Below the pieces are notes generated by a model, which saw nothing but the letters and a program-made list of their open reading frames with translations, searched no databases and was not told the DNA's origin. Shown one piece after another: positions 4,627 through 36,000 of a stretch of DNA of 64,000 bases (position 1 is the first letter of the stretch; the number at the start of each line of letters is the position of its first letter). The DNA comes from Lingula anatina (Eukaryota > Animalia > Brachiopoda). The stretch covers positions 24,636,534-24,700,533 of the forward strand of contig CM120644.1 of the NCBI GenBank assembly GCA_051362555.1. The letters run 5' to 3'. A program made the position numbers and the translations under genes.

Positions 4627-5099
4627 GAGTCAGGCTCCATCCTTGAAGAACATAAATAATAGACAAAATCAGAGTTGTGAGATGGTAGAGTTTTTTTTTC
4701 TGTTTGGTTGCCGTTTACTTCAATTTTTGTTTATCTACGTTATGGCTTCTTTGTGACGAGAAGAAAGAAGTGCGGCAAAGGATATTTTATGTTACAACTC
4801 ATTATTTCAAAAAAAAAAAAAAACATTGATTTTTTATGGGTAACGGCGGTGGTAACAAGCAATTTGTGTCTGGCAGAGGTTAGAAAGGAACTGGTAAGTT
4901 AATACCTTATTACTTTCTTTTTTTTTATTCTTTTTACGTTTCTGTATTACAAATATCCTGCGTAGAGCTTTTGCAATCTTGAACTGCTAGTTAGACTGCG
5001 AAACCGTGGGTGAGGTATTTTGGTATTGGTATGTAAAAAAATATTTGTAAACTTACAATATGTGTGCAACATATTAAGCTACGATCTCATTTCTTTCAG

Positions 5100-7676: not shown

Positions 7677-10017
7677 ATGACGTATTGAAATAAAGTGGAT
7701 GGAATTATCAATAATCCGTGGGAAAAAAAGGCTAAAACTTGCTTTTTTTCTCTCGTTTTCACACACTTTGCTGTCAAAGGAGAGAAAATAAATTACAAAG
7801 AAGATCAAATAAAATATATTTCCTTTCACTTGAAACATGAACGAGGACTACATCCTTCACTTAAGGAGAGTTTACGTGAAGTGTAGTTATGGACTACGGA
7901 TGGTAAGGGAATCAGGACATTAACATTTTATAGATTGCTTGTGTCCCATGTTCAGAGAAATGACTCCTTGTATATGAGTTGTCAAAGGATTGTCTGATTC
8001 GTTCCAAAAATTAGGGTTTATTCTTTTTCCTTTTTTTATTTTAAATGGAGTGCAAGTGGACCGTCTTCCAGGTACTAATGCGCTTGATGGGTCCAGGCCA
8101 AACAAAGTGCAATAGATCCATTACTTATTAACGTCTTGGAAGCTATAAAGAACTGATTTTATCAGGACGTTAGCAAACAAATTGAAAGAGTTAATTACAA
8201 TTGCACGCATGGCAATATAATATAATTATATTAGGCTCTCAAAGGCATGTGATCGATATATGTTACCGAAGCTTATGAACCATTTATGCCTAGTTTATTT
8301 TTTGTTTGGGCAAGGGGTTTATTGAAATCATCACTGTACCCAATTAAGAATATGTCTGAAGGATACTATTATTTGTTATCCGTTATCCGGTGCTGCGTTT
8401 CTGTCGCCATGGCACCGTATGTAAACAAGCTGATCTTGCAAAGAGATGCGTGGTCTTTAATTAACCTTGACCTTGAAAACGGACTTACTCTCTTTTTTTT
8501 CCTATGTCGTGTATGTATTCTGGAACTTTGGTATGTGCATATGTAGTTAATTAATATTCCAATGTGAAATACATGGGTTTGGTGTCTCATATACATATAT
8601 ACGTAGGGTTAGAGGGGAAACGGTCAATGCAAATCCAGCTAGATGGAATGTAGAAAACATTTATTTGTTAAAAATAAACTATACATAATCGAAAATTAAA
8701 GCCAGTGACAATTGTATTAATGTTATTGTCCATTTGTTACATTAGTCATTTATTGTTTACTGTATATAATCCCCGTTACTTCAATTTCCCCACCAATCTA
8801 CTTGAATTATATGCTCCTGATTGTGTACAATGTTTTTTTTTACGGATTAAGGTGAATGCATCACTGAATTTAGGAAAATTAGAAGTTATAGTAATACAGA
8901 ATAGCTAGCTTACTTTGGGTCATTTTCGTTGGTACTCATGCTAATTATGTTTTACTGTAACACCTTTCAATAGCTTATGATATCAGTTTTTGGATATGAA
9001 AAAAAATGCTGGCCACATGAAAGGCCTTTGGGAATTTTTTTGGTATTTGGTCATTGTCAAAGAGATTATTTCAACGCAGTTCCCTATCACTCGTCTTGGT
9101 CTTATTAAAGATCATTATACATGACATACCCTGGTATTGATAAACGCTAAAAACAAAGCGTCCCTTAATTTGGCAGGGCGCATTGTCCAGTGAAATGGAC
9201 GCCTTTTCTGCCGTAATGTGCAACGTGCATGCCCACACAGCGCTTGGTTTACCATTTGGATGACCAAATATCCTAAAATCTTACTATGAAGAATGCAAAG
9301 TCCACAATACACATTAATCCCATATGCTAGTTTTTTTTAAGAAAATTTGATAAAATATATATACACTGCATTGCCAGAGCACCTTAACAATACAAAATTT
9401 CAAGTGTACAAAAAAATCTTATAATCAGAAGGCACTTTTTCAATTTTTTTAAAACGGAAACGGAAACTTAAAAGTTGAAATTTGCTGTAACTTATAACAA
9501 ACTTTTATAGACATCACTGAGCATGCATTTGAGTTTATCAACGTAAGGTCCAGTTGATATTACAAGATTTTAATTACAAAAAAAACTCAAGTCATGTTAT
9601 CACAAGGGCAGTAGGAGTACATTTTAATTGAACCAGTAGTTTATAAGCATGCATTTCTCTGCCCATGATGTATTCTTCAAATCATCAACACAGAAATTCC
9701 CCTTTTGTGCAGTGGACGTGGTGTGATGTGGTCGTGAAATGTCCCAGTAAGTCTTGTGGCGCTCTCTGGTCAGATTTTTTTCGCACAAAAATAACCTAAA
9801 GATCAAAAGTATTAGTACACCGATTTCATACATTTTGGTGCAACCAATATTCATGACATGTAACTTAATTTCTGTAAAAGCAAAGAAACAGAGTATTAAC
9901 AGGAAAGGGACCACAGGATCATTTTTATCTTTTTTTCTACTGAATTCTGTTCACTCAAACCCAGCACACTTTCCTTCTCTGCCAAAGGTCTCCTTACCTC
10001 GTGTCCATAGGTTTCCG

Positions 10018-13000
10018 TTACTTCTTCTCGTTCATGTTGTGGTTGATATGATCATCAATGACATCACCAGCGCCACCTAGGACATCAGGTTCTTCAGAAC
10101 TCTGCTCCTCGCTCTCACTGCGTTCATCTTTCTCTACCTACCACCACAGAAATGTTTAAAGATCAAATATCAAAAGGTCAACTTTACAATGTTTTTGAAG
10201 ACAACTCTACATCATGAGCAATACTTTCTAAGCAAATCTAAATTAACTGCCTAAATAATGTCAATTAACAAAATGACAACTTTATAACTTAAACTATGTG
10301 TAACATATTAAATAACTTAAAAAAGATGCAGTAAAAAAAACATCATAGAAAACTTAACTTTTTTTAGCTAGATGAAATTTATTTCAGATTTGTATTTGGG
10401 TTCATTTTCAATTCCAGACTGTCAAAAATAGTCAATAACCTGTGGATTGTGTGCTACTGTTTTCTGTTGCGAGAATTTGTCATTGGTGTGTGTATGTGTG
10501 TGTGTGTACGAATGCTTTAAGAAAAGACTGGAAGGGAGAGGGGTGGGGTGGGGGAATGGGGGGACTGCTGTACTGCTAGCTTTTTTTTTTTTACATCCTG
10601 GGCAAATGAAAAATATATATAAAGAAAAGATAAAGAAATGGTAATAGCCAACAAGAATTGTGACTGCTTCAATGAAGTAACACCCATATACATTTTAAAA
10701 ATCATAACACTGTATAGTGATGTTGACGCACCTTTCCCAAGGCAAGCGAGTTGTAGATGACTCTACTGATCAGATAAGACCAGTAGAAGTGGAGGAGCTG
10801 GAGCACTACCACTGCAGCGATAAACACCTGCATGGAGGGGTACCAACCCATTATTACTGTACTCTCAAATAAAAAAGTATGGATTATCCTAGAAGATAGA
10901 ACAATGGCAACGGTATTGGAGAAACTGAGGCTAACCCAGAATACCACCACCTTGATTACCTGTGCTGATCATTTCTACCTAAGCAAGAATGCCAGATACT
11001 GTACACTATGATCTACAAAACCCTTTTCCTTCATTCAGCAGCCAAGTCATTCTGGCCACTGTTTGTTCCCAATCACAAATATAAACTCTTGGATGAAGAC
11101 AAATTAATGTTATATCATCAAATACAATCTGGCAAAAATGATCATAAAGCAAATTTATTATCAATAATTTGGATTGGTTTAGACCATTAACATCAACATT
11201 TCCATGTAGTTCAATTAAATGTCAAAGTGCAACAAAATTAATTTTTCTATAAAACTGAGTGCACTACCTCAACTTGATAATCTTTCATCGTCATCATCAT
11301 CACCATCATTGTTCCACTGTGGTGCCATTGGATTTCTGATACACAATACAATAGTAATCTTTCAACCCTACTACTACTGAAAATCCTAAGTCAAAAACCT
11401 TAAGCATTTGTCTGTTTAATGAGACACAAGCAACAACTGATAGGTAATAAAACGTTATTATATATATATGTGTGGGTGTGTGTGTGTGTGCATTTTTACA
11501 AGAAATTCATCATTTTATGTTTGAATTGATTTCTGCATTAAATTTATACATTTTTTATTGCTCAATATTGGATATACACAATCTGACAAAATTACATTGG
11601 GTGAAAATGTTATTGGCAGCAATTTCCACCCCAAATCAGGTGTTTATAATTGCTTATCAATAAATAATGTTTCATTAATATTGCTTCATATTTAAAAATC
11701 ATGATTGTCGATTAATTGTATTATTAAAAATATGTTTATCCGATACAAAATAGACACAAAACCTAGCAAAATCTTTAACAACATTCTGAAATAAAGTGCA
11801 ATATTTCATTAGTGCAATCATACCAGTATTGATGGTGGAGTCCACACTTACCTTGTAGGAAATATGATCAGTCTAGTGATGAGCCAGACCAGAGCAAACC
11901 CTACAAACAAGAAATCACACAGCTTCTGCCGACCTGCATATTTTGCCATCTTTGCTGCCTAGAACACAGAAATATATGACAAGTGCTGCCATCTAGTGAG
12001 TAGAGACCAGAGTTAACCAGCAAACATCTACATTTGTTTTCTTTTCCAAACTATGTATCTTTTTGTACATCAGAAGTGTTAATAATAATTAATAATACAT
12101 TATTAATAAAATATATAGTGAAGTCATTTTACAGGCATTTGGTATCAAATTAAAATGTAATGAAGGCTTTTATCAGTCAGGAAGTTTTTGATGGCGTTTC
12201 AGGAAAAAAGCCCCAACAGTCTGTGTGCGTGGGGGGTATTACATCTAGCCAAACGTCAGCAGCATTATGGACAGCTAACATCAGTGTTCCTATCCTGACA
12301 TAGTTACCGGACCAAGACATAGATATCAGGAAGATGGTCACAATGTGGTGCAGGAACGTCTCCCAGAAATCCTGAAAAAGAAATTATAGAGAAAATAAAG
12401 TCATGTATAAAATCAATTAACTAAAGGCTGATTTACTGATAACTAGAGGACCAGAGAGCGATTGCGGGTCCGGATATTGTACCACTAGCTGGAGTAAGTG
12501 CATTCGTATGCCTTTTTCTCCCACCATTTTTTCTTAGAGCAGTTGGACCCCTTTTTAAATAACCGTCGTATGAGCCGGTGACTCCCAGGGGGTACAGAGA
12601 CACCACTTAATATGAACATAATAATAATAATAATAAATTAACCCTTGTATCACCATACTGTACCTTTCTTTTGATGTCAACAAAGTGTGAGGCGGAGAGA
12701 GACCAGTAGAAGGCTAACTCTAACATATAGTACCAGAATACATCATCTGACACATGCTGGGGAGGAAAGAAACCAATATTATAGACATATTTTTCCCTTT
12801 TAAGGCAAAAATGACATTTTGATTTTTAAACATACATACCGGTGTGGATATAACTCCGTTTTTATATTAGCTGCCGTTAAACAACTGTCTTTGCATACAT
12901 TAGATACATATTAGTGTTTGCTCTATATAAAAGCAATGATATAAATGTTTCAGTCACTTAGCCATGGAGTCCATAATACTAGCCTATAGGGAAGAGAGAT

Positions 13001-16000
13001 AGAGTGGATTACCTGGTCTGGATAGCCTATCCAGCAATTCCGTATCTCCCAAAACCATGGTTTCTGCAGTTCCAGAGAAATTAATTAACTTCAACATATA
13101 ACATAATGGTTTCAAAGTAAAACAATATACATTTACTTAAATACACCTTTCATCATTATTTATTTATATAAGTTTGATGATAACAATTAAAATCAAGACT
13201 GTCTCTGCCTTCCATTCTTAAATATCCCTGTTTGAACAGTGTTAACAATGATAGGGTCTATTGTTCCAACTTACATCCCATAATATGGTGATACCGTACA
13301 CAAAGGCTGATAGGTAGAAACAAAACCTCCAGCTAAAAAAGAACAAACAGGAAACTCTACACACTGGAAGTGCTAAAATGCTTCTTTAGTTTGCCACCAA
13401 CATAACGTGTTGCCATGGCAACAGCAATAAGAGACAAACGAATTTTGGGCTTGCTGTTAATTATGGTCTCAGAGGAACATGATGTAAAAATGGATTGTGA
13501 AAGTAACAATAACGATGGATCTGGTTTGGACAGTGTAAAATCAGGTTTTAGCTGTGGTCCCAGAGATGATGTATGCCTACAAATCAATGGTATAGTTTAT
13601 ACGCCATACTGGGCTGGGTTGTATGAAAGCCGTATAGCACTATACACCGGATAACTCTATACAGTGTGTAAATGCCCTATACGGCGTATAGCTAAACGGT
13701 GGATAAATAAACGGTGGATAAATATGCATTGTATAAAGAGCGTATAAACAGGCGGTTAGTTAAACGGTGGATAAAATTGAAGATAGTTGCTATGAACAAC
13801 TTGGTCTATGTCCATATTTGGTTACCCATCAGACACTGTTGCTAAATCACTTTACTGATAAAACAAATCCAAGAAATTGACAATAGATTAATTTCTTTTC
13901 ATATATTATTCATTTTTATTTAGCATTTATGTAGGCCTACTGTTCATCTTTGTCTCAAATACAAGACTTAATTATTGCAATCAAACGCTGAAATGAACAA
14001 AAGAAACTGGCAAACACTGAGATTAAATGCATTGTAGGTGAAAATTCATTTTTAACTTGTAGTGTTAATTGTTGTTCATGAATAATTTTACATGTGAATA
14101 TTATATTCTAAAAGAAATGTAGAGAAATTGCTTTACATTATTTACTATTTTCAATTTTATTATTTATTTTACTACTTGTGCATTATATGTGCTGATGAAA
14201 ATGTACATGTAATGTTATTTATACAAGGGTATCACATTGAACACAATAATTGAACACATTCAATTACGAAACATAATGAATAGATGATTACGGTCTGAAA
14301 CGGTACACAAATAATCTTAATCTGGATCAGTACTTTTATATCTACATATATGTGAAATATTAATGTTTGTTTGAAAAGTTTTGAAATATATCCCCTGGTT
14401 GCTGGTGTTGAGGTGGAAAAAATGTGCACAATGTGGATGCTTCCAGGCCACTGGGAGACAATACATGTAAATCTACATGAAAAAAGAAAAGAAATGAATA
14501 TTAAGAATGATTTGAAAAGGGGAAGGGGGTGGGGGAGACAATAATTAAAACAATAATAATGGTGAAAGCACATCATTTTTGGAACATTTTCTTTTTTTTT
14601 CAATATAGTCAAAGAAATATTCAGTTTGCATTTATGAGATAGAATATGATAAGGTGATGAAAATAAAATTCAATTAATATATTAGCATTTAATTCCATCA
14701 TGTATAGTCCTTATTTACTTTGCAGTTTAAAAGGGCCTACTTTTTAATAACCAAATAAATAGAAAGTAAAGTAATCAACACATTCCCAAAGTTTTAAAAT
14801 GGAAATTAACTTAATTTTTGTAATTATGTGGTTCTGCAATGATTTTGTTATTCATTAAAAAAAGATTATAGACTATTAAGGTAGATTGCATTAGCTGCAC
14901 CTGCATAAACATTGCTTGCACATTCAGTCACACTGAAGAAGCCAAGGTCATGGCCACAAAAATGGCCGACTTTCAAAGTTGAACCACGAATGCTGCAGAT
15001 GTTGGACGTGTTATTTACGGTGAGCTCTTCAAATTTATGCTTTGAATATGTAATAAAGATCAATATCTTTGTGGTCACATATAGCCTGAGCATTCAAACT
15101 GTGGTATTTCTTTCTGTTCACCAATGCAGGCTCATTCAACGTGGGCACTGTTATCCTAATGCGAGTTCCGTCCACAGCCGATGACCCCAGGGAATCTGGC
15201 AATCCTAAAAAAAGCCACGCCGGATCGTGGCCTTCTTCCTCTCTCTTCTCTGTCTAGGTGGACTATACTGCTGAGGATTCCTGTGGAACCTCAGCAGGCA
15301 TGCCATTTTTATCCACTGTATAACTATTTAAACGACCTCCCTGAGACGTATAACTTTAACCGACCGTTTAGCAGATTTATCCACCGTATAAAGTTATACG
15401 TCTTTCATGCAACCGTATAGGAACCGTATAAGTTACACGGCTGATTTATCCAGCGTATAGTGCTATACGGCTTTCATACAACCCAGCCCTGGGCGTATTG
15501 CCATCGGTGCCGTTGTTCTTCACAGGGTTATTAAGTGCTGTACCTGAATCTGTTATGTCTAAAAATTACAGCAGGCACATTAAAAAATATAAAATGTTTG
15601 TTAGGAAGCAGGTGTAATTTGGACTGTTTATATCTGACATATTTGAGTGTTTCCAGGCAGCTGGCAGCACAATGTTAACATTATGATATATAAAACAGAA
15701 ACTGAGAGAGATAATCTGAGGTTCAGACATGAAATAGAGCATGTAAAAAAATTGTCACATCTGTATATGTGAACTAACTAGTTTGTAGTCCGAGGGTCAA
15801 ATATGGCAACCCATTACAAAAATTGTCGTCTAAACCGCTTATAGACACTGAATAGATTTCCCGTGGAGAAGTATTTAATACCCCCGTCACACTTATTCGG
15901 AATCAGCAGGAATGAAGAAGAATGAGCACGAACGATGAATTTTTAAAATTCGAAACACATTCGGGGGGAAATTTTCAAATTGACCTTAATTATTGTAAGA

Positions 16001-19000
16001 GGACCGTTGGAATACTCAGAATGCGCTTGAATTCGCCTGGAATGATGAGTGCATTTTCGACTGTGTAGCTCTCAAAAGCAGTTCGAATGTAGTTGGAAAA
16101 TTAGGAATATTTATAATGCCGTAGAAGGCAGTAAGAATATTTAGAACATACTTTGAACGGCGCACTAGTGTAGTTCGATTGCTGGCAAAATTATTATTTC
16201 AGCTCATCCGAGGCACATTCGAAACATTCTGGCGGAGTATAAAATCATTTAATGCCCGTCACACTAGAGGCGGAATGATTAAGAATGGCGTCGGAAATAC
16301 AATCCTTTGTGCGTTCCAGGATGTTCGAATAGCATTCTAAAAACATTCTAAAAATTCTGAGTGCATTCCAAATATTTTAACACATTCTTGTGGCCGGCTC
16401 GAATGTTTTTGTCATGTCAAAAACTTTCGAAGTGCATTCCAAGAGGAAATTTATCGAATGACATTTGAACAGTATTCTAACTGCACTATGACTGCATTCT
16501 AAATATTCTCACGGCCTTCCGACAGCATTCGAAACATTATGATCAGTTACCATTCCTGTGGCGTTATCTATACACTCTGGGCATCGTGTTACATTCTAAA
16601 CATGTTAGAAAGTAATTTTAATTAAGTATTTTAGGTATTTCAGCTGCATAATGTTTGAATTCTTTATATTTCAAACCATCATTGGCAGCCATACCGGGAG
16701 CAGTTAACTGCATTTGAGTTCGCTTCGTATATCATTCGAGGCATCTTCTTACATACTTCTGCCTGTATTCGGCCAGCAGTCAAACCACAATCATACGGGA
16801 TTTGAATTTCATTCGGAATATTCTGACTGCAATTTGAAATTCCCTCCCGATTATGGCACGAATTTTTCAATTTATTCATTCTGGCTGGTTCTACCTATAT
16901 TACTGCTGGTTCCGAATAAGTGCGACGGGGACCTTAAGTCGCGCACCAGTTCAGAATGGGTTAAAGTATTTGAAATGCACTCAGAATTTTTAGAATGCTC
17001 TTTGAATATCCAGGAATGCACAAAGGATTGTCTTTCCGATGGCATTCATGTTCATTCTGTCTCTAGTGTGACGGGGGTATAAGCGGGTCGGTTCTGTTTG
17101 ACCCTCCGACTACGGCAGTTAGCCCACTGCTGTGAAAGCGGCCTAATAGAAACAGCATGTCACAAGATTTGAAAACTAATTAAACTGTTCAAATAAATTA
17201 CCAATTATAACTATATTCTAAATGAGAAAACAAACAAAATCACAAATGATGAGTAGCCGCGTTTTACGCAATCATAGCAATCTCTTCATACCTATTTTCC
17301 GAGAATTTTACAATATCACTGGGTCTGCCCAGATTCCTCCTGAGTCGAAACCATCGCTCTACGCGCCGCCTGGTCCAATCTGTTTGTTTTACTATGGCCT
17401 GAAATAATGGGAAAAACATTTAAACTTGAGTAAATATAACAGTATAAAAGTCAACAAGTACAGTTATGAAACTGTATTTCTAATGATTATGAGCCAAATA
17501 TTTATTTTAACGGCTGCATCAAGATCAGTATAAATTAAAATAACATAATATAATAACATACTTTTTATAAATCCTGTGTAGCCAGTTTTACCAAGTGGAA
17601 ACTAGATGTGATATTCTTGCGCTAACAAATCCTTTAGAATTGTCAAAAATTTCCATTTAAAAGAAAAGTTTGCATTTTAAAATCCGCTCACCTGTAATTG
17701 TTTATCACTCGGGTTTTTATTTCTTTTAAATTCACTTTCTAATATGGGATTTTTCGGGACTTGAACAATTACTTTTCCCTTCACTCCCAAATGTACAGCA
17801 ATAGGAGAAGCTATGTACCTAGGTAAAGACATAATAAAAACTAATAATGTGCCATGAATATGGAATCTGGTGAAAGTGGCCATTATTAACAAGATACTGC
17901 TCTGGAGACACTGGGAATATTAAAATAATTCATTCTCAGCCTATGTGCTCAGAATCTTAATGCTCTTTCCATGATGCATTGCTTACTCAAACAGTTCCTG
18001 GTGACCTCCCCGACTCCACAAGCGCGCCTTTAAACGGATTAAACCTCTGCTCCAAGGTTTAATTGCTAGGTCCTACAGCGACGGCGCGAGTGGAGGCGGG
18101 GAGGCCATCAGGAGGCATAGACATCACTTTTGAACTGTGGTCGGCCATATCCATTCTGAATGGGATCAAACTGACAGCCGAGTATCAGCGGCGAGGGCCA
18201 GTGTGTTCCCCACATTATATAATCTGTACTGAATTACGTGAATGTAAATAGGCAGGTGTCTCAGTGTTCCTAGGTAATGACACAGAGCCACAAGGTAAAT
18301 ACAGATGACCTGTCTGTTATCAAACAGCAGAGCAGAATGAATTGAACATCTTACAGCAGCATCTATTATTTACTATGACATAATTAATACCCTTCCATTC
18401 AGAAATGCACAAAAGCTAATACAACACTACATATGACTGTTATAAGACATTAACACTCAAACAATGGGTATCACTTCTATCTTGTTAACACTATTTCAGC
18501 AGTGTGCATCGACTGCGGTAGGGCAACCAATTTTTTAAATTTTTAATTAATTAATTCTTATTTATTTATTTATTTTATTTATTTATTGTCATTTTTTTTT
18601 TTTTTTTTTTGCTTATCCAAATTACTTCTTTTCGTCGCTTTTTTCTCTATATGGTTTAAATAGGGATAGAATAAGTCTAATCAACCCTATCCTGTTTATC
18701 TAAATTAAGTCAGTTTAAGCATTTAGCTAAACTGCTGAGTGTTACCACTACCCCAGATTGGTCTCAGTTCACATGTCCTACATAAAGAGAATTTGGATTG
18801 AGGACTTAAGGTCAATCAAAAGAAAAATCAATCAAGCCACCTTCACCCCATTAATTTGCCACTGATCCCCAATATGCTATACAGTACCTTTTATTGTCAA
18901 AAGAATAGAACCATTCATTCATTGATTCAGATTACAATTATTGATTCAATCATCGTCACAACGGGCTAAGAATGACTGTTTTGCGGTAAGTATAGTTACT

Positions 19001-19922
19001 GGCGCTACTAGTAAAGTGTTAGCAGAAGTACATATCAGACATGCTTTCTTTCATTTCCCTTCAATTAACAGTATTAAAACTGATAAGAAAGATAGCAACA
19101 GCACGTTGTTAAACTTCGTATACCACAGTGTACAGACCGCACAAAATTTTTGATACGTGTAATTATTTTAAATTGAGTCGCGGGCATGGGCACGCGGCTC
19201 GTAGTCGTAGTGTAATTGTCCCTATCTCTTTAATTGGTCTCTGTCAACTTAAAGTTTACCTTACTTTATTGGCCTTTATCTAAAGTTACGATAATTTGCG
19301 GCCACGCGGTCAGACACGCCAATATCTGAGGTATAAAGCCAGGTAGCAGCTAAGAAATAAATAGAGTTTTAGATTTTATAACGAAGCTGTGGTTTTGCGT
19401 TACTTTTCTCTCCGGGCATAACTCAAGTCGTGGACTGAACCTTGAAATATCCAGCATTGGGATTAGAGCCCATATATTAAATTATACCCCGCGGTATCTT
19501 TAAGAACCCAGTACAAGGGTGCCAAGATATGTAATAAAAACGGGAAATTCAAAAAATATCTTATTTAATTCAAGACAATGAGTGAATAACCCATGCAATA
19601 CGACCTCTTACATTTTAACATTAAAAGCATATGCAACATTTTAATAGACTGGTGTTTAATGTCCATCTTGACCATCCAGTCTTAATCCTGCTGATAAGTG
19701 GGCGTTCACCAAACACCTGGTCAACACAAATACTGACCTCTCGAAGAGTGGCCTTAGCACCAAAAGCACTGCCGCTATTGGAATAGAATACCAGATAAGA
19801 TCTTGCACTTGTGGATGATATATTCCATTATCTGTATTTTCTAAATGTTTCCACGTAAAGCCTTCTGGAAGCCAAAATTTTTCGTTCCAAAACAATGCAC
19901 ATAACGTCCGCCAAGCTTCCAT
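10018..19922 (-). CDS. Ceramide synthase (CerS5/6-like, homeodomain + TLC/Lag1 domain), duplicate copy A, 10 exons, 377 aa
   Basis: Exons (minus strand): 19738-19922, 17692-17818, 17292-17398, 13275-13332, 13013-13063, 12664-12756, 12243-12371, 11852-11958, 10732-10888, 10018-10137. All GT-AG; total 1134 nt, open. Motifs [19 protein letters not shown] (Hox helix 3), [31 protein letters not shown]. Confidence 0.93.
12442..12511 (-). mobile_element. 3'-end fragment of the Helentron/HINE-like family seen at 53831-56033
   Basis: aactagaggaccagagagcggattgcgggtccggatattgtaccactagctggagtaagtgcattcgtatg is the near reverse complement of ~55962-56031; absent from the matching intron of copy B. Confidence 0.75.
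13612..15488 (-). mobile_element. Decayed PIF/Harbinger DNA transposon with transposase remnants
   Basis: TIR ggctgggttgtatgaaagccgtatagcactatac / gtatagtgctatacggctttcatacaacccagcc; CTG duplicated at 13609-11 and 15489-91; minus-strand peptides [37 protein letters not shown] (~15060-15203, frameshifted) and [14 protein letters not shown] (~14430-14472) match HARBI1-type DDE motifs; empty site in copy B near 40320. Confidence 0.88.
15772..17125. mobile_element. MITE family 2 copy, split by a nested insertion
   Basis: actaactag..gagggtcaaatatggc..gaagtatt[insert]gcgggtcgg..tttgaccctc; an uninterrupted homologue is at ~37230-37405. Confidence 0.7.
15879..17079. mobile_element. Non-autonomous Harbinger-like element (1.2 kb) with TAA target duplication
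   Basis: TIR tacccccgtcacact / agtgtgacgggggta; TAA at 15876-78 and 17080-82; internal TIR-like copies at ~16254 and ~16910-16931; interior rich in gaatg/cattc. Confidence 0.82.
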
Positions 19923-20495
19923 TTCGGTCTGCTGAGATCTCGTGCCAGACGAGATTTTACGTGAACGATCTGACATCAAGGCTCTTAGAATGGCGCGAGA
20001 TACACTGTAACACGTCACAGTTTGTGCGTTAGTACACGTGTTTAGAATAGATTTTCCTTTGGTCGGGCAGTAAGCGATTTTTTTTACAGAAGCAATAAGC
20101 AAAGGCGGGTGAAAATGATACATTAATTGTTTTTAACGAAACTGCTGTTGTGACCGTGCATTTCCCTACCTTCACCAGGGGTAATCCTAGAGAGGGGTGA
20201 GGAACGACCATTGTTCTCGTCAGAGAGGCTAGCCATGTTCAGGGTATGTTGATGTACGAACAGACAGAAAAACATGAAATGTGGGAACGTTACTAATGAA
20301 GCCACTGGTAGTAGCAGTAGTAGATATTAGTTTGTAGTCTTGAACAAGCACTTCGATGTCGAGCTAACAGTTGTCAAAAACAAAATGCCCCAGTGCGGTA
20401 CATCGACTACTGTTCCTGCGTGCCGCAAAGGCCAAGCCCTAATTGCCCTTGAAGGTTACAAACCAGTATATATGGTGCTGGCGGTTATGCTCGTC

Positions 20496-25618: not shown

Positions 25619-28329
25619 TTACTTCTTCTCATTCATGTTGTGGTTGATATGATCATCAATGATATCACCAGCGCCACCTAGAACATCAGGTTCTTCAGAA
25701 CTCTGCTCCTCGCTCTCACTGCGTTCATCTTTCTCTACCTACCACCACAGAAATGTATACAGATCAAAATATCAAAAAGTCTCTATTACAGTGAAGCAAG
25801 TCAACTAAAATGAGCAATACTTAATAAGCAAATCTAATTTAACTGCCCAGGAATTTTAATTAACAAAATAACAACATGATAAAACAAACTATACATAAAA
25901 TGAAATGAAAATTACTTTTAAAAAATAATGCATGAAGTTAAAAAAACAACACTGGAAGCTTAAATTTCACTTAAAAAAACAGTTGAAAATTATTTCAGCT
26001 TTTCATTTTTCATTTTTAATTAAGATTGAAGTTGCAGCAATGGGAATCAAAAATCTTAATTGTCAACAATTTATAGATTGGGCCCTATTATTGTTTCTGT
26101 TGTGAGGAACTGTCATTTGTATGTGTTTGTGTGTTGCGTGTGACTGCCTATAGAAAAGACTGGAAGGAAGGGGGGTAAAGGGTTGGCAAAATGGGGGGGG
26201 GGGGGGGGGGGGGGGGAGGGGTTAGGTTGACAGGGGAGGAAGGGGGTAGAAGGCAAACATAAGGCTTATTATACATGCATACACATACCAAGGTGGTCGT
26301 TTTGCAAGCCCCACCCTTCACCTGCATGCACATGCACAAAACATGACCTATAAGTATATATCCATTAATGGCACATGCACTTTTTGTACAGGGGTATGGA
26401 GTTTAATTCTGCTGTGTATAGGGTGTTAGTACAGCACCGATGCATGGGGTCGTTATGTTGCTGAAAGCCGTAGCTACAACAAGTCTCTGGAATACTGAAC
26501 AATTTGAAAGATAACTGCTTTCAAGATACCATGTTTTGGTGGGGTGGGGGGGTGTACATTCATTTACAATGTTTATTTTGAAACCATAGAATTGCCTCTA
26601 CTTAATAGTTAAATGCTTTATGGTTTTCAAAATGTTTTCATCTTTGATTTAAAAAAAAAAAATATGGGAATAAATGGACTAATCCCTGTTATTATCTCCT
26701 CCACGGATTGCCCCTCTATGCAACTTGTAAAAAGGTGGTTGGTATGAAAATAGGCGACTGCACTTTATTCAATTTCTTCAGTTATATTGCCAAGAACAAG
26801 AAAAGAATAAAAGTTCCATATAAAATAAGCTGTTGTTATTTAGGTTAAGTCCAGTATATTCTGCATGTTACTTGAATGTTTGAAAGTTATCTATACTTCG
26901 CAATACAGATGAAAAGTGGAGTGCTGGGCATTGCTTCACTTCAGTGCCTGTCACAGGGCAGTGTTCAGCTTTATGTAAGTTTTAGCTTTGTTTTATGTGA
27001 TGGCTCCCTGAAATCCTCCTGAAAATTTAACATTTTCAGTATACTGTTCTCCTGTGGAAATTCCATAAAAAATCAACCAAGCATGATAATAAATCTGAAT
27101 GCTACAGCATCAAACTGGCCATGAAGTTGTGAAGACAATTCTTCTAAATGGTAACTAACAATAAACATAATAAAACAACATAAAAAGCCCCCGTAATATT
27201 TGGCAACTTAAAGTAAAGTCAATTAATGCTAAAGAACCAAATGCAGAGCTAAAAAAAACTTATTTCACCACACAGCTAACAGAAGTGCAGGTTAATACTC
27301 TATTACCTAGTGCAAGTTAAATAAACAATAAGAAAACACATGCTCTCAGACACACACTGTTAACTATCAGCAGAAACCATCACTGGTGGGAGGAATTGAA
27401 ACACCACACCCAATTATTATCATTATATACATATACATATATATATATTCCAGAGCACCCTGCAGTAAAGCACACACACAACAACAATTCACTGCACTAG
27501 ACAATAATTGGTAAACAGTTAAATCAATCAACACAAGGAAATATTGAAGTCTGACTGAGTATACGTCATATGATATTAGGGATTTGATCTGAACTGCAAA
27601 GTCAATTAACTGGCACATAAAACATTGACATAATTTTCTATATCCCCTTCAGGGCTTGGCGTTAAAGGTGGCTTGCCGGCCTGGGCCACTTAAAACCAAT
27701 ATCAGGCCAGTCAATCACAGGGGTTACTGGTCCCAGGGGCAGGTAAAGTTTAATGTGCCAAATAACCCTTGTAATATCTACCAGACCTCCCTGGGCTGTG
27801 GAGATAAAATTAGTGTCAAGCCCTGGTCCTACTGAGATAAAGCAAAATCCCATTATTGGTCTCAAGTTGTAGGTGCCACACATCGTAACCATGGACTGAA
27901 TGGTTAACATGTAATGGTTAATATCTCATATACTCCAATTATGGGAGGAAGCTAAAAGCTACTCAAACATAATATATTTAAAACATCAACATTCAGCAGG
28001 TTTATGAGTGTCAGACATTTAGGAAAGATTGGCACAAGGCTATCATAGGCTAAACACTGCAGAAAGGTTTCTTATGGTTTGATTAGTTAGTAAAAATAGT
28101 CACCAAAAGGAACTGGAAAGCCATTCACTGTGAAAGACGTGATGTTTACAAATCACAACCTCACAATACCAGCCATCCACATATATTAGGAAGAAGGAAC
28201 TGTACAACCTGGTGGGACCTATTTCACCAGACGTTTCACTGCTTAGCTAATGCTGCAGAACTTCCACAGCCAATAATATTGAATATAACGAAGGGGACTC
28301 TGTGACAGATGGCTGAGTGGTGGACAAAC

Positions 28330-28374
<45 letters not shown>

Positions 28375-31300
28375 CACCAGGGTATTAAAACTGAATTGTG
28401 TGCTTTCAACTGATACAGGTAAGACTTAATAACAGAACAGATCCATTCCCTTACAAACAATTCCTACGGGGTTTCCTTTTGGACTCTAAGGGACTCTTTA
28501 GGATTTCTATTGGATTCCAGAGGCGGATCCAGAGATATTTTCTGACAGTCTTCCAAATTATCTTTGTTGATCCATCCTCGATCCGCCCCTGGATTCCTAT
28601 CCAGGACATGTCCTACAGGATTACTATCTAGGAAATATGTCCTACAGGACTACTATCTGGGATATATGTCCTACAGGATTCCTATCTAGGACACATCTTC
28701 TATAGGACCCCCTTGGGATTTCGGACCAATTTTCCCACAAGTCTCCCTGCAGTAAACTTCTGTAAGCGGGGTTGTGAAGCAAACATTTCCCAGGTGGTCG
28801 AGTCCCAGGCCCAGCGTGAAGCACGGCGTAAGCACATGTTATTTGACTCTGCAGTTCACATGCAAATGTTACATATTTGGCTGTAACCTAGCAACTGTGG
28901 CAGGTGTGACAGTGTGGTTTCTATGGTAACACAGGCCGAATGTTTTTATATGGCAACACCACACTTGAAAATTGTGACTTGGGACATCTGCCAATGATAA
29001 GTATGGATTATAAGCTGTAGATGGGGAAAAATGCTCAGAAATAAGTTTAATTATCAACTGTGCTTTCTTGTTTTTAGTGTGATAGACCCAAGCTAGAAGA
29101 AATTCCGCTCTCTTGAATTCAATGTTTTTAAGTGATTTGCATGTTGTTGTACTGCTAGCTTTTTTGAATGAAATAAGTAAATAAAAACAAATAAAAGAAA
29201 CAGATAAAAAAAAAAGGTAATAGCCAACAAGCATTGTGACTGTTTCAGTGAAGTAACACACAACTACATTTAAAAAACATAACACTTTATAGTGATGTTG
29301 ACGCACCTTTCCCAAGGCAAGCGAGTTGTAGATGACTCTACTGATCAGATAAGACCAGTAGAAGTGGAGGAGCTGGAGCGCCACCAGTGCAGCAATAAAC
29401 AACTGAATGGAGGGGTACCAACCCATTATTACTGCACTCTCAAACACACATGAACGGATTATCCTAGAAGATAGAACAATGGCAAAGGTATTGGAGGATT
29501 TTTTCATTAACATTTTCTCTTCCTTTCATATCTGTAAAAATAATTAACGGAAAGGAATTCAGCTTCTGAATCAGTGCTTCTCTTTGAAATATCCTAGAAT
29601 ACAACACAGTGGCAAAGCTAAATGACATCTTGGTTATTTTCTTTTTTTCTTTCAGACTGTTTTGTTGGCCTTTCTGTTTAAAGGGGTACCGTCTTGTCAT
29701 CAAGGCTCAAAGAGTAACCCTAGAATATAGAATGTTAGCAAAACTTATTGCAGCTTTCAAATTCTGTGACTGTGTTTCCATTTTACTCATCAAAAGATTC
29801 TGTTGAGGAATGGGCAAAACCCCTTCTTCCCTGATAGCCAACAAATTATCTGGCACATTTTTCATTCCATGTTGCCAGAAATATTTGTTGTTTTCCTTTT
29901 GAATTTTCTAATTGTTGTTTCATCACCTTAATATGTCTGCAATAAATTAAGCACCTTTACATTGGTTATTCACTGGTCTCCACAATGCAAAGCAATGACT
30001 GAGGGCAAGTAGTCTATGTAGGCAAACAAAGAATGCGCCATGGAGCCTTAACCTACCAGCTAGAGAAGCAGATGAATTGGCAGTAGCTCATGCACTGGTG
30101 TTTTCTGGCATTGTTCCTCTAACAAAAGCTTAAAATAGGATAGAATTTTCTGAGAAACCTCTGCTTTTATTCCTTGAACCATATAACCAATTACCATGTA
30201 TGTATCTCCTTCCAAAACGAAACATTTACCCATACATATCTGATCAACAGCTCAACACTGACACATCTTGTACTTCTCAATAACAGTTCACAGCTGCTTT
30301 ATTGGTACAGAAAAATTTGACGATCAAAAGAAATTGTTTACAAAGTGCTGAAACAGTGTGATCTTCTTGCCTCATGCTTAGCAACATCAGTGCTACTTGC
30401 TGTTGTTGGATGTTCCATATTGCTTGTGCAACACATTCTACAGTCACATCTACCACAATATGGCTGTAATCTATACATTGTGCTGGAGCTCACCCAAACA
30501 CACTCCACTGTCACACCTAACACAGCCGTGGTGTCCACAGGACTCTGATGAGGTAGGTGAGAGGGTGACCAGGTAAATGACATCATTAAATAGGGACATT
30601 TCATTTATCATACAGATTGCAAAGCATGCTCTAGTGTTGGCAATGCACTGTCACACACAAAACATTCATATGCCACAAGTACACGTTCTGAGGAGATGAC
30701 ACTGATCTCATCATGAAATTCAAAACAAAAATAAACACATAAAACACATACAATAACAAGACCAAAACAACATAACACTAATAAATGAAATAACACTGTG
30801 CCATGCTGAACAGTACAGTGTAACAGATGGATATATCACAGACATTGCACAGACACAAAACAGACATTGTACAGACATCACACAGACATTGAGAACACAA
30901 AACAGACATTGTACAGACATCACACAGACATTGAGAACACAAAACAGACATTGTACAGACATCACACAGACATTGAGAACACAAAACAGACATTGTACAG
31001 ACATCACACAGACATTGAGAACACAAAACAGACATTGTACAGACATCACACAGACATTGAGAACACAAAACAGACATTGTACAGACATCACACAGACATT
31101 GAGAACACAAAACAGACATTGTACAGACATCACACAGACATTGCAAACACAGAAGTGACATTGTACAGACATCACACAGACATTGTGAACACAGAATAGA
31201 AATTGTACAGACATCACACAGACATTGCAAACAAAGAACAGACATTGTACAGACATCACACAGACATTGCACAGGACACTTATACACAGACTGCATACAT

Positions 31301-31641
31301 GTCTAGCCTTCCAAACAGTATTCATCAATGAATACACAGCTTGTACCAAACAGGTGGCCAATTAACAAAACACGTTCTGGGACATTTTCTGGAACATCAT
31401 ATGATATGATCTTAAAATTTTAATCCTGAAAAGCAGTTCTCATTCAATAATTTTACTTCTGTCCTCTTTTATGGGTATTTTTTTTAATCACATGTGATCT
31501 AAAATCCAGTGGTCTTAGGGCATAACTTAAAGCTAACCAAAACAATCCGGAAGCACCCTTTCTTGTAAAAATGATAACATGCATATATCAAACATTCACC
31601 TATAACCTCTTTATCCTAAAGGCAAACATGCCACCCCCCCC

Positions 31642-31695
<54 letters not shown>

Positions 31696-33020
31696 ATGGA
31701 ACTACAGGGTAAACGCCTGCATGTTCAACATCATTTGAATTAAATGATAAATAACCTCAGTTTGGAATGCATACTTGGCACCTAATACAAGATGGGAGAA
31801 CCTTGCATACATAGCATCTTTTACATAAGAGAGGGGGACACCTTGCTCACATGGTATACAATATGGAGAGGGCCAATTAACACAATACACCTTGCAGCCA
31901 GATGCAGTATTGCAACTGTAGAAGCAGCAAAAAAAGATGTCAGACTAGCTCCAAGCTGATGTTTTGTAGTGTCCTTTTACAGCCACCTGTCCAACCTGTG
32001 TATATGATGAGCTTACATGCTCAATGTAGTGTCAGTTTTAATGACTGGCCATTTATATAGGTTTCTATTTTTAAATTATTAAAATAATGGGATAAACTGT
32101 ATGCCTTCATGCAGTTTCTGAATATCTTATTTCTTAAAATTATTTTTTACTCCACTGCTTTGCTAAGGCCAAAATAAGAAATCCAGATTTTGATATAAGT
32201 TGTACAGGAGAGAAGAAGATAATATAGTTCTTTATTACTTTTTGTTTTTCATTATTGAGTCTCCAAAACTACACTGAATTTGTATGCAGTGATATGTTAA
32301 AAGACTGGGTCATCATATATCTGGTTATTTATATGTAAAATAACAGAATAAATGACATAAACAGTTTCAGAAGTTAGTTGTCATCGACACAAAAAACAAG
32401 ACAAAAACGCTCACAAAAAGAACTTCACTTCAACATCACAATTCAGTATCACAGACAGTATTCAGCCATGCATACAAAGAGGCATGCAACCACCATATAG
32501 AACACACTCAGACCAGCTTAGCGTCAGTTCACATGTACAGAAGTGCTGCTACAACCATTAGTGTGGCTCTAACTGCAGGCATGAGACCAGCTTTGGGTGA
32601 GATCTACCTGGCAAATGTCTCACATCACAGTACAACATTACAACGGTCCTCTTCTGAACTCTACCAAAGGTCTGGAGGATCTCACGCCTGCTCTAGAAAC
32701 TGAACACCACCCTTGTTAACCCTGAGAACAAACCGTCCACCGCAAAGCCCGTTTCACATTTGATCATGCGTTACACCACCGTGTGCTAACATGCCCCAGC
32801 CCTAGCCCACGTAGCATGCAGTCATTAAGCAGTACAAACTGGGCACAGGGAATGTGGAGGTGGTGCCGACATGCTGAAACATAGGGCCACTGGATAAGTA
32901 CATTGGATTGACATGGAAGACAGGTTTTCTATGTGATAGTGCTGACTAGTGAAGTAAGGAAGAGAATTGATTATGTAGCAGTGTGTGTCACAGTGAGAGA
33001 GAGAGAGAAGAGAGGATAAG

Positions 33021-33063
<43 letters not shown>

Positions 33064-36000
33064 AGAACATCATTGTTATCTTGCCTGTCTGGTATATTTA
33101 TATGTTATAACACTCCTTTTCATGTTAGCTGCAGTTAGAAGTTTTAGATATTAAATAACACTACTAGTATTCAAAACTGGTTAATTTCTCTCCTTTAAGG
33201 AAAGATGATTTACCTGCTAGAATTTTTTCAATGAGAATCTATGAAAGTCTTAAAAAGTACCCCTTTTTGAAGTTTGAAGTAGAGCCAGAATTTCTAGTGA
33301 AGAATCCAAGAATAAAATAATAAGATATAAGTTAATAAACTATGTTAAATCTAGGACTTGGCAAGAAAGCGAGTTAGACCAGTTGTAGTTACAAGATATT
33401 ACATAACGTGCAGCGGAGAATACAGTGACTCAGTACTTATGGTACTTATCACAAGTTAAATGTTATGTTAGTGGGTAGTTTAAGAATGTTCTGAATGCTA
33501 TTTGAGTATTATTTTCACCCTGACTATCTGATCACGGGAGTAACAGGACACTTGAAGAGCATTCACAACCCGCTGATGTGGGGACTAACTAGTCTGCTGA
33601 TCAAATATGGCTGACTCACTTCAAAGCTGGCCCAATAATCACCTAACAGACACTGAACAGATTCCCAGGGAGGATTACATGGCAAGCGTTCAGTGGAATT
33701 TTCAAGTGGGTCAGCCATATTTGATCCAGGTTGGGTATGCTCTCTTGTTGAATGAATGAACATGTTCTACCAATCATTTCAAATCGAGTTTCTATTATAA
33801 GGGAAAAATAACTTCTATGTGCATTTTTCTGCTTGTCATATTTCACTCACCATAGTTTAACTTTTAAAGGTAAAAGGCAAGGTTTCCTCTTTATCAAAGC
33901 AAACTCTGCATTTAAAAATATCCAAAAAATATCATGAAGTTTCAATTACTTTTAAGGCATTGCTTTAAGGCACCCATACAGATATTCTTTGAATTACAAC
34001 TCCCAAAATAACAAATTTTTAAACTCTTTTTTTTTTTTTTTATACATCAAATAATCTATTCCCCACAGTAGTTTCTATCAAACTTCCCCAGTGTCAGTGT
34101 GCAGGAAACCTGACATGGTGGTCAAATGGGGCTGTGTCTACTGGCCCACACCCTGATTCTACTTGGAGACACGGCAGGATTCTACTGCAACTAGCCCTAT
34201 AAACTATACCCAGGAAACTAGCTCTATGATATGCTATGATCAAAACCCAGGAAATTAGCTCTATGATATGATCTATAGCTGTATGCGTGGAAACTAGCTC
34301 TATGCGTGGAAACTAGATCTACATGTGGAGACTAGCTCTATATGTGGAGAATAGCTCTACAGCCTGTGGAGTGTATGCAGGTGCAATCAGACAAGAACAG
34401 TTGCCCAGAACGGTTTAGGTCCAAAATACCAGACAAACAGTTGGGTTGGCCACCAATTACAAGACTGTAGAGATAACTGAGGACATAATTCTTCCTTTTT
34501 TATTATTAGTCTGTGCTCTCAAAGATACACTAAACCTTAAATATGACAATATTAAAAAAAACTGCATTTAAGGTTTTCATCATGGCATATTTCAAAAACA
34601 TATTATCATGTAAATGTTGGACGACCACAGGTTAAGTTTTTAGACAATTAATGCAGATGCCAAAGTATGAACTAAATTCTGCAAATCATGATAATTTATT
34701 GTGGACATTGTTTGCATATCTTATGTCAGTTTCGAGCACAAGGTGGCTGCAGAAGTTACTTCTGGTTGTCTGGTGACATAATTCAGACTTGAACCAGTTT
34801 AGGTCTATCCTTGTCTGAAGATCTAAACGTGCATTAAATTCTACAGAAGTGAGAAAGAGGAATAAAAAGAAGAAGAAGAAGAAGAAGAGAAAGAGATTGG
34901 AAAAGAGATGGAGAACAGGTACAGAGAATAATAAGGAGAAAAGAGCTGTGAGGGTGTTATGTGGTTGCCATGGTGCAGAGAGCAGCAGTGAGGTCTGCAG
35001 TGTGCACTGATGTGCTGATAGTGTATATATATAGTGTGCACAATCAATGAGGCTGCTGCCACTGGTGATAACTATGATGGCAGTTGTCTTTAACTCGAAA
35101 TCATTCTGGAGAATTTCTAAGACCATTTATCAATGAAAATAGGTAGAGATGCGCTTCCCATAGTTGATGAAATCATAAACATCAGGTTTTGCTTCACTTC
35201 TCAATTGCTGTAGTTGAGATAGGTTCATATGATCCACAATCATGATGGGAGCACATTGTGATTGCTGTAGTTGAGATAATATCACAATCATCACGTAGGG
35301 GGGAGGGGAGACAGTGCTATACGCCTACCTTGCCCTTAAGAAAAGCTGTGAAGGCAACTTTGCATATCAAATAAAACCAAAATATGTGGAGCACCAGTAG
35401 GGATGTCAGCAGTATGTTATACACCCAGTAAAAGGGGTAAGTGAAGGGGTCCACCTTCACTGTGGTGTGCCCCTCTAACAGTGTGCTGCGGATCACCCTG
35501 GAAGAAGACAAGAGATTGGAGACGACGTCAGATTCACTTCATACAACAGTAGCAGGTCTTTGCACTGAAAACTGAAATGTCTCTAATCATGGTCCTTTGA
35601 TTTAAGTGATTTCAAGATGATGAAAAAAAAAAAACTTTTACAAATGGGGCTCATGCAACTGATGTGAAATGGGAAACATAAAACGGGGTCCAAGGGACCT
35701 CCCAGGACCTGAGGTTTACGCATTTTTGGCTCCAAATAGTCAGAAATCAGCAGAAAGTTGGAAAAATCTCATCCGCGTAGTATCTGACTCTGCGTGGCAC
35801 TAACCCAGGTTACCACCACCTTCATTACTTGTGCCAATGATTTCTACCTAGGCACAAATGTCAGATACTGAACACTATGATCTACAAAACCCTTTCCTTC
35901 ATTCAGCAACCAAGTCATTCTGTTTGTTTCCAATCATAAATATAAACTCTTAGATGAAGACAGAGGCTGGAAGACTAAATCTATGTTATATCATCAAATA

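What the first reader, a model, noticed from the sequence alone, without database searches (positions are those of the whole stretch)
12243..12371. CerS-A has Asp->Asn in the Lag1 catalytic motif (HNAAD vs HDAAD) but an intact ORF
Seen: A reads ..[12 protein letters not shown] (AAT at 12264-12266) and B reads ..[12 protein letters not shown] (GAT at 37612-37614); the His-His pair is kept. Established: the HH and DxxD residues of the Lag1 motif are highly conserved and needed for ceramide synthase activity, and CerS enzymes act as dimers. All 10 exons and splice sites of A are intact although its introns have diverged heavily. Inference: A may be a pseudoenzyme or dimer regulator, or an acyltransferase with a changed acceptor.
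Basis: partly seen in the sequence, partly recalled or inferred. Interest (0 to 1): 0.75.

Follow-up and report, generated by a model that had tools for sequence, protein, structure and literature searches.

The report
Disarmed ceramide synthase copy, exon-swapping parent
A brachiopod carries an intact, transcribed second copy of a ceramide-making enzyme with asparagine in place of a near-invariant active-site aspartate, so it likely no longer makes ceramide, while its parent gene has two alternative exons for the loop predicted to set fat-chain length, a swap also annotated in oysters and a priapulid worm.

Summary
The Asp-to-Asn change is real, and a RefSeq Lingula anatina protein carries it too. 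It sits at CerS6 D239. No homologue has Asn there (0 of 263 with a residue). The matching acid-to-amide mutant in TLCD1 (E145Q) is inactive. The acid is shared by TLC enzymes with different acceptors, so loss of catalysis is likelier than a changed acceptor. Copy A is a tandem duplicate (dS 0.20, dN/dS 0.21), too intact to have been neutral for long, and is transcribed in 2 of 3 RNA runs. The Asn codon itself was not shown in the read table. Recent decay cannot be excluded. The same exon swap is annotated in four oyster species and Priapulus. I found no paper on it. Verdict: A is a likely pseudoenzyme (0.38) or a decaying copy (0.30). The exon swap is the more general lead.

The parts
10018..19922 (-). 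CerS-A coding span, 10 exons: 19922-19738, 17818-17692, 17398-17292, 13332-13275, 13063-13013, 12756-12664, 12371-12243, 11958-11852, 10888-10732, 10137-10018; 377 aa
   Evidence: matches RefSeq XP_023931178 apart from that model's 12-aa duplication and the adjacent residue
12243..12371 (-). A exon 7, Lag1 motif; carries M212T, M223I, N229G, V238M, D243N, F247V, E250D relative to B
12264..12266 (-). A codon 243, AAT (Asn), equivalent to CerS6 D239 and TLCD1 E145
12345..12350 (-). A His215-His216 (CerS6 H211/H212), intact
12237..12245 (-). A exon-7 splice donor, weakened by the E250D codon (5 of 9 consensus matches); read-through ends at a stop 21 codons into the intron
   Evidence: depth arithmetic suggests about 2 reads in run X11 run into this intron (inferred)
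10732..10888 (-). A exon 9, homologue of B exon 9b only (83% amino-acid identity; 31% to 9a); TM6-TM7 loop and TM7
9764..9997 (-). A 3' UTR intron (9997-9796) and start of the next UTR exon, spliced in RNA reads
   Evidence: 6 reads in X11 match A 30 of 30 and B 24 of 30
25619..46355 (-). CerS-B coding span, 11 coding exons: 46355-46171, 42283-42157, 41863-41757, 40042-39985, 38350-38300, 38031-37939, 37719-37591, 36836-36730, 9a, 9b, 25738-25619
   Evidence: RefSeq isoforms X1 (9a) and X2 (9b) are identical to these models
37612..37614 (-). B codon 243, GAT (Asp)
35329..35497 (-). B exon 9a, 169 nt (3n+1), loop 4 residues longer; absent from A
29307..29463 (-). B exon 9b, 157 nt (3n+1); including both 9a and 9b shifts the frame, so they are mutually exclusive
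   Evidence: both forms seen joined to exon 8 in run X14
29497..35799 (-). About 6.3 kb of B, holding exon 9a, with no counterpart in A (deletion in A, inferred)
   Evidence: A 10931-11974 aligns to B 35800-36853 and A 10566-10921 to B 29145-29496
8982..19986 (-). Extent of duplicated unit A (partner unit B about 22422-46422)
   Evidence: self-alignment

Best explanation
Copy A is an intact, transcribed tandem duplicate of the ceramide synthase gene B with Asn at the conserved active-site Asp, and it is likely a catalytically dead or very weak enzyme that selection likely keeps for a non-catalytic role, most likely as a dimer partner that would dampen B. Shown here: the duplication, the substitution, the open frame, purifying selection over most of A's history, transcription, and loss of exon 9a. 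Inferred from other enzymes: without the acid facing the His-His pair, acyl transfer through His215 would fail or slow sharply, while the barrel would still fold. Inferred and untested: A pairs with B through the unchanged C-terminal motif and lowers B's output (about 0.2 of the 0.38); or A acts through its unchanged Hox-like domain, as catalytically dead Drosophila Schlank still does (about 0.12); or it binds lipid without turnover (about 0.06).
For: No Asn in 263 homologues with a residue at the site, 259 acidic. TLCD1 E145 is mapped to CERS6 D239 and E145Q fails to rescue activity (PMC11838393). D239 lines the conserved pocket next to His211 (PMC11919693). Chance of no stop, frameshift or splice loss if A had been neutral along its whole branch: 1.7e-10. 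dN/dS 0.205. A lost six residues that 65% or more of the family share and B lost none; all six lie in residues 200-312, the catalytic barrel (p 0.005, window chosen after seeing the data). 16 of 33 amino-acid differences fall in the Lag1 motif and exon 9 against an expected share of 0.24 (p 0.002), while the Hox-like domain, TM2 and tail differ at 2 of 113. A-specific spliced RNA in runs X11 and X14. The model keeps the CerS6 fold (pLDDT 89.8; Foldseek E 2.5e-23). Precedents: inactive but needed TgCerS2; inactive Schlank H215D still binds DNA; CerS2 needs an active CerS5 partner in a forced heterodimer (second-hand passage).
Against: No activity was measured, and I could not read the CerS mutagenesis papers, so I do not know whether D-to-N at this exact site was tested in a CerS. 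CerS has a second Asp (D246, kept) that one paper singles out as the essential one. The exons with few amino-acid changes also have few silent changes (6 of 85 against 38 of 161 sites, p 0.001), so gene conversion could explain their sameness. Neutrality over the last 5% of A's branch has a 0.33 chance of leaving the frame intact. The exon-7 donor is weakened. All exon 5-7 reads shown for X11 and X14 carry B letters at the diagnostic sites, except one site at 1 of 3 that looks like a B polymorphism. A differs from B at 46, 49, 51, 58, 200 and 202, in or near the regions that form the CerS6 dimer interface (mapping inferred). No orthologue of A was found.
Confidence: 0.38

Rival explanations
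1. Late decay. A worked as a 9b-only enzyme, kept by splitting the parent's two isoforms, until recently; Asn243 is likely an early null mutation in a copy that now does nothing.
For: If A was neutral for only the last 2-5% of its branch, the chance of an intact frame is 0.33-0.64 and the joint chance with one hit at the 43 most conserved sites is about 0.1. B still has exon 9b, so A is redundant. The exon-7 donor is weakened and intron 7 seems retained in some reads (inferred). No orthologue was found.
Against: Five further losses of consensus residues cluster in the barrel, which needs a longer relaxed period than an intact frame allows (chance 0.001 at 30% of the branch). The locus is held at 57-67% of sampled words by 7 DNA runs from 3 studies and is transcribed in 2 studies.
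Confidence: 0.3
2. A is still an active ceramide synthase, likely slower and with a shifted chain-length preference, because His215, His216, His242, Asp246, Arg279, Tyr146, Tyr193 and Trp322 are all kept and the changes concentrate around the acyl tunnel.
For: 42 of 43 highly conserved sites are kept. 9 of 52 exon-9 residues differ with only 4 silent changes, and this exon holds the loop that seals the tunnel in CerS6. Some natural paralogues have non-acid residues at this column with His-His intact (2 S and 1 I, the latter from Photinus pyralis), activity unknown.
Against: The amide mutant at the mapped site is inactive in TLCD1. Both aspartates are reported as essential in mammalian and yeast CerS (second-hand statements).
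Confidence: 0.22
3. A is an acyltransferase with a changed acceptor, such as an alcohol or another lipid amine.
For: D239 lines the proposed long-chain-base pocket, and TLC enzymes use varied acceptors.
Against: TLCD1 (lyso-PE) and CLN8 (GPG) keep an acid at this position (E145, E167; the CLN8 match is inferred from spacing), so it is a shared catalytic residue rather than an acceptor selector. In TLCD1 the acceptor step depends on a different acid, D98. The other five pocket residues are unchanged in A.
Confidence: 0.05
4. The Asn codon is an assembly error or a rare allele, or A and B are two haplotypes placed side by side.
For: Position 12266 was not among the 40 of 78 rows shown, and the DNA run could not be read. 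The RefSeq A and B proteins otherwise equal the window's, so the two assemblies may share an animal.
Against: Two assemblies agree. A and B differ by 17% and 136 indels in 4,455 aligned non-coding bases, whereas DNA runs hold about 60% of A's 31-mers, which B alone could not supply. The change sits among five other consensus losses.
Confidence: 0.05

Closest known systems
Human CerS6 (PDB 8QZ6/8QZ7), CerS2-6 type
   Same: TLC barrel, Hox-like domain, His-His, second Asp, Arg, pocket tyrosines; 45% identity, TM-score up to 0.86 normalised by target length
   Different: A has Asn for D239 and Asp for E246; B supplies the TM6-TM7 loop from either of two exons
Toxoplasma TgCerS2, a pseudo ceramide synthase (PMC10946778)
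   Same: Duplicate of an active CerS with an altered Lag1 motif and the fold kept
   Different: TgCerS2 lost the His-His pair, is 17% identical to its paralogue, is conserved across Apicomplexa and was assayed as inactive. A keeps His-His, is 91% identical to B, was found in one species and is unassayed
TLCD1 E145Q (PMC11838393) and CLN8 E167 (PMC13661276)
   Same: Acid facing the His-His pair; acid-to-amide change
   Different: Engineered mutant of a lysophospholipid acyltransferase that lacks the CerS tail motif; CLN8 E167A was not expressed, so it was not tested
Drosophila Schlank H215D (10.1101/2025.07.24.666377)
   Same: Catalytically dead CerS with an intact homeodomain that still binds DNA
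   Different: Engineered at the histidine; no DNA-binding or nuclear role is known for the brachiopod protein
Oyster and Priapulus CerS5/6-like isoform pairs (e.g. XP_062609791/XP_062609798; XP_014680864/XP_014680865)
   Same: Identical before and after exon 9, 27-37% identical within it, like Lingula B X1/X2
   Different: Automatic annotations only. The exon tree (52 columns) does not group Lingula 9a or 9b with either oyster type, so shared ancestry or repeated origin is open
Photinus pyralis XP_031341782 and the Penaeus CerS2-like clade
   Same: Natural paralogues with a non-Asp at this column and His-His kept
   Different: Ile or Glu rather than Asn, and much more diverged from canonical CerS

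Membership tests
Ceramide synthases, CerS2-6 type (copy A) | TLC domain (PF03798) | tested here: met
   E 1.5e-45, profile 1-198 of 198
Ceramide synthases, CerS2-6 type (copy A) | CerS6-like membrane fold | tested here: met
   Predicted model pLDDT 89.8; best Foldseek hits 8QZ7 and 8QZ6
Ceramide synthases, CerS2-6 type (copy A) | His-His pair of the Lag1 motif | tested here: met
   H215, H216
Ceramide synthases, CerS2-6 type (copy A) | First Asp of DxxD (CerS6 D239) | tested here: not met
   Asn243; 0 of 263 homologues with a residue have Asn
Ceramide synthases, CerS2-6 type (copy A) | Second Asp, Arg, pocket tyrosines, third His, Trp (CerS6 D242, R275, Y142, Y189, H238, W318) | tested here: met
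   D246, R279, Y146, Y193, H242, W322 unchanged
Ceramide synthases, CerS2-6 type (copy A) | Hox-like domain | tested here: met
   Residues 87-126 differ from B at 1 of 40 and B hits PF00046. The RefSeq A model misses the hit, likely because of a 12-aa duplication absent from the window
Ceramide synthases, CerS2-6 type (copy A) | C-terminal DxRSDxE motif | tested here: inconclusive
   A and B both read DERSESE, with Glu for the second Asp; motif from PMC8789539
Ceramide synthases, CerS2-6 type (copy A) | N-acylation of a sphingoid base from acyl-CoA | not testable with these tools
   Needs an enzyme assay
Apicomplexan pseudo-CerS (TgCerS2 clade) | Loss of one or both histidines, plus R-to-L and Y-to-D in the Lag1 motif | tested here: not met
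   A keeps His-His, R206 and Y257; definition
Pseudoenzyme in general | Maintained by selection after loss of catalysis | tested here: inconclusive
   Selection over most of the branch is shown; selection after Asn243 arose is not
TLCD lysophospholipid acyltransferases (TLCD1, CLN8) | Acid opposite the His-His pair (E145/E167) | tested here: not met
   Asn in A
Mutually exclusive exon pair (B 9a/9b) | Homologous tandem exons of the same phase; joint inclusion breaks the frame; each spliced alone | tested here: met
   169 and 157 nt, joint inclusion gives stops; RefSeq X1 and X2; both joined to exon 8 in run X14, read from a mixed loose-end consensus of 6 reads plus 2 reads with 9b letters
Mutually exclusive exon pair (B 9a/9b) | The two isoforms differ in acyl-CoA preference | not testable with these tools
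   Inferred from the TM6-TM7 loop sealing the acyl tunnel in CerS6

The most novel reading that the evidence does not exclude
Invertebrates in at least three phyla switch ceramide chain length from one CerS gene by swapping mutually exclusive exons that encode the tunnel-capping loop, doing by splicing what vertebrates do with six genes. In Lingula a duplicate froze one isoform, lost its catalytic acid and became an animal pseudo-CerS that regulates its parent. It may also lend its exon 9 to read-through transcripts from B as a third loop variant.
Probability: 0.22. Interest if true: 0.72.

Novelty: new variant of a known kind. Interest (0 to 1): 0.45.

Why it matters
If A is a kept pseudoenzyme, it is an animal counterpart of Toxoplasma TgCerS2 that is still 91% identical to its active parent, so a few changes separate enzyme from regulator and the role of CerS D239 can be tested with a natural pair. 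If it is decaying, it is an ordinary duplicate. The exon-9 swap matters in either case. Isoforms identical except for the loop and last helix are clean natural chimeras for testing how chain length is set, and they offer an answer to how invertebrates with few CerS genes could make varied ceramides. How many CerS genes Lingula has was not testable here, as no genome was held.

Tried and rejected
No whole genome was held, so other paralogues could not be counted. No RNA holder was listed by the run index; RNA runs came by species label. A search for 23-76 residue fragments of exon 7 found no candidate. The exon-9 tree had 14 of 34 inner branches well supported and did not resolve the origin of the swap. 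No clear relic of exon 9a in A intron 8: two hits of 10-13 nt at E 0.49. No Rfam match in the window. No earlier scan findings. A search for named D-to-N or D-to-A CerS mutants returned 8 unrelated papers. Five papers were not held: Spassieva 2006, Tidhar 2018, Laviad 2012, Kageyama-Yahara 2006, Levy 2010. Term searches in PMC13201657, the PMC11838012 supplement, PMC10122649 and PMC10970773 gave nothing on this residue. Rejected: A and B as alleles (divergence too high); heavy intron divergence as a sign of great age (it equals dS); the sameness of the Hox exons as proof of selection (silent sites are also low there).

Full report
Observation. On the minus strand, 12371-12243 translates to an exon ending [12 protein letters not shown] and 37719-37591 to one ending [12 protein letters not shown]. 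A self-alignment shows a tandem duplication: unit A at about 8982-19986 and unit B at about 22422-46422. Exon mapping gives A ten coding exons, canonical GT/AG ends and an open 377-aa frame. Protein searches name the source species as Lingula anatina: RefSeq XP_023931178 (A, with the Asn) and XP_013382240/241/242 (B isoforms X1-X3). The RefSeq A model has a 12-residue duplication that the window lacks, so it is another assembly. The proteins are otherwise identical to the window's, so the two may not be independent animals.

The residue. Asn243 aligns with human CerS6 D239. Among 265 homologues (117, 148), the column holds 248 D, 11 E, 2 S, 1 I, 1 A (a misaligned truncated protein), 2 gaps and no N. 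A changed 1 of 43 sites that are 90% or more conserved, and this is the one. In the CerS6 structure paper (PMC11919693; section 9 read whole, other passages), His211 is the nucleophile, D239 lines a side pocket proposed to hold the amino alcohol, D242 binds the 3-hydroxyl, and the TM6-TM7 loop seals the acyl tunnel and sets chain length. A TLCD1 preprint (PMC11838393, passages) maps E145 onto CERS6 D239 and reports that E145Q neither reacts with the probe nor rescues lipid remodelling. CLN8 lists E167 in its active site (PMC13661276, passages). In TLCD1 the acceptor step needs D98 (PMC11838012, passages). So the acid is shared by enzymes with three different acceptors. I infer that its loss cripples catalysis rather than changing the acceptor. 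The original CerS mutagenesis papers were not held, so their results are second-hand, and figures and supplements I could not see may bear on the exact mutant.

Selection. A against B-9b gives 43.5 silent and 35.5 replacement differences, dS 0.20, dN/dS 0.205 (p 1e-8 against neutrality). Aligned non-coding DNA differs at 744 of 4,455 bases with 136 indels. At those rates a neutral A would have collected about 22 disabling changes; none is present (p 1.7e-10). That bound is weak for recent time: neutrality over the last 10%, 5% or 2% of A's branch leaves the frame intact with chance 0.11, 0.33 or 0.64. The changes are lopsided. At 13 differing sites B has the family's commonest residue and at 4 A does (p 0.049). 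A lost six residues shared by 65% or more of homologues (Q200H, M212T, V238M, D243N, E250D, L312V) and B lost none. 16 of 33 differences fall in the Lag1 motif and exon 9 (expected share 0.24, p 0.002), against 2 of 113 in the Hox-like domain, TM2 and tail. These regions were picked after seeing the data. Exons 3, 4, 8 and 10 also have few silent differences (p 0.001) while their flanks are as diverged as elsewhere, so conversion between the copies may explain part of the pattern.

Presence and expression. Nine of 21 listed runs hold the A locus; seven DNA runs from three studies hold 57-67% of its sampled words. Three RNA runs (5%, 6% and 22% of each read) were laid on 9950-13400 at 85% likeness so that both copies would map; the DNA run was not read. 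In X11, 6 reads continue into a spliced UTR exon that matches A at 30 of 30 bases and B at 24, and 2 of 2 exon-9 reads carry A letters at six sites (the exon-9 joints come from one start). In X14, 2 of 9 exon-8 reads carry A letters. Against this, the exon 5-7 reads shown for X11 and X14 carry B letters (2 to 4 reads per site; one site at 1 of 3 looks like a B polymorphism). X17 carries the B letter at all 22 diagnostic coding sites shown, with at most 2 reads of the A letter at three sites, and has its own letters at ten coding sites where A and B agree, so it is a diverged lineage under the same label; rows appear only where reads differ from A, so this count is biased. Position 12266 was among the 38 rows not shown. 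Depth arithmetic suggests two further X14 reads join A exon 7 to exon 8, and about two X11 reads run from exon 7 into intron 7; both are inferences. Intron retention would fit the weak donor created by E250D.

B has two exon 9s, 169 and 157 nt, 33% identical in protein; using both shifts the frame. RefSeq annotates both, and run X14 shows both joined to exon 8. A lacks the 6.3 kb that holds 9a. As 9a and 9b are far more diverged than A and B, I infer that A lost 9a. This exon encodes the TM6-TM7 loop and TM7. Among 348 held proteins of 250 aa or more, 25 pairs are 97% or more identical in exons 4-8 and under 60% in exon 9; they come from Lingula, four oyster species (Saccostrea cucullata, S. 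echinata, Crassostrea virginica, Ostrea edulis) and Priapulus caudatus. None came from the insect, rotifer, decapod or vertebrate proteins held, which are cluster samples and not a census. Three searches found no paper on this swap (listings only), and one found nothing on Lingula ceramides among the 15 listed. The library lacks most subscription journals.

Mechanism. Shown: duplication, loss of 9a, intact frame under long selection, transcription, Asn243, fold kept. Inferred: A cannot carry out acyl transfer efficiently. Inferred and untested: why it is kept. The tail motif linked to dimer formation (PMC8789539, abstract and passages) is the same in A and B, and that paper recounts that CerS2 needs an active CerS5 partner, so an inactive A would be predicted to dampen B. 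Dead Schlank still binds DNA through its homeodomain (bioRxiv 2025.07.24.666377, passages), and inactive TgCerS2 matters for fitness (PMC10946778, abstract and passages). Odds: kept pseudoenzyme 0.38, late decay 0.30, active enzyme with shifted preference 0.22, changed acceptor 0.05, error or rare allele 0.05.

Verdict. A descends from the CerS2-6 type and folds like one but fails one defining residue, so it is not filed as a working member. It is not a member of the TgCerS2 clade. It is a new variant of a known kind, seen in one species. The substitution alone would score about 0.35. The exon swap across three phyla is annotated but, as far as these searches go, undescribed and easy to test, which raises the score to 0.45.

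Noticed in passing
window 35329-35497 and 29307-29463; oyster and Priapulus isoform pairs P0009/P0010, P0283/P0274, P0293/P0294, P0290/P0287, P0021/P0317: Mutually exclusive exon 9 encoding the loop that sets acyl-chain length in CerS6, seen in three phyla. Limpet and octopus proteins resemble one oyster type and mussel the other.
   Followed up: yes
window 9764-13063, run X11: Reads in exons 5-7 are B-type while exon 9 and the 3' UTR are A-type. Small numbers may explain it, or B exons 1-8 may be spliced to A exons 9-10 by read-through, or this animal may carry a recombined gene.
   Followed up: partly
window exons 3, 4, 8, 10 of A and B: Silent divergence is about 0.07 against 0.23 in the other exons, while flanking introns are equally diverged; possible gene conversion or constraint on silent sites.
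   Followed up: partly
run X17 on window 9950-13400: A run under the same species label carries its own letters at ten coding sites where A and B agree, and DNA run X20 holds only 5% of the words; consistent with a diverged lineage under one name.
   Followed up: partly
window 12441-12510 (A intron 6): A short element, also at 55962-56032, draws most of the laid RNA reads in all three runs, with loose ends on both sides; likely a fragment of an abundant repeat-bearing transcript.
   Followed up: no
window 325-3366 and 5117-7607, + strand: Two tandem paralogous genes with an N-terminal PAN domain, a His/Pro- or Thr-rich middle and a Cys-rich end, one scoring just under the cut-off for a chitin-binding domain; they look like secreted matrix proteins.
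   Followed up: partly
window 778-987, 4413-4628, 20494-20708, 42411-42614, 45118-45331, 57621-57841: Six copies of a roughly 200-bp dispersed repeat, 72-93% alike.
   Followed up: no
window 61866-62030; 54665-55703; 30837-31269: A 165-bp self-inverted element with a partial copy at 37235-37399; a 146-bp tandem array of about 7 copies; a 42-bp array of about 10 copies inside the segment that A lacks.
   Followed up: no
proteins P0135 and the P0225 cluster: A firefly CerS paralogue has Ile at the D239 column together with the same E-to-D change as A; a 57-member decapod cluster representative has Glu there.
   Followed up: partly
RefSeq XP_023931178 (P0003): The database model of A repeats 12 residues in the Hox-like domain that the window does not contain; likely an artefact of that assembly.
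   Followed up: yes
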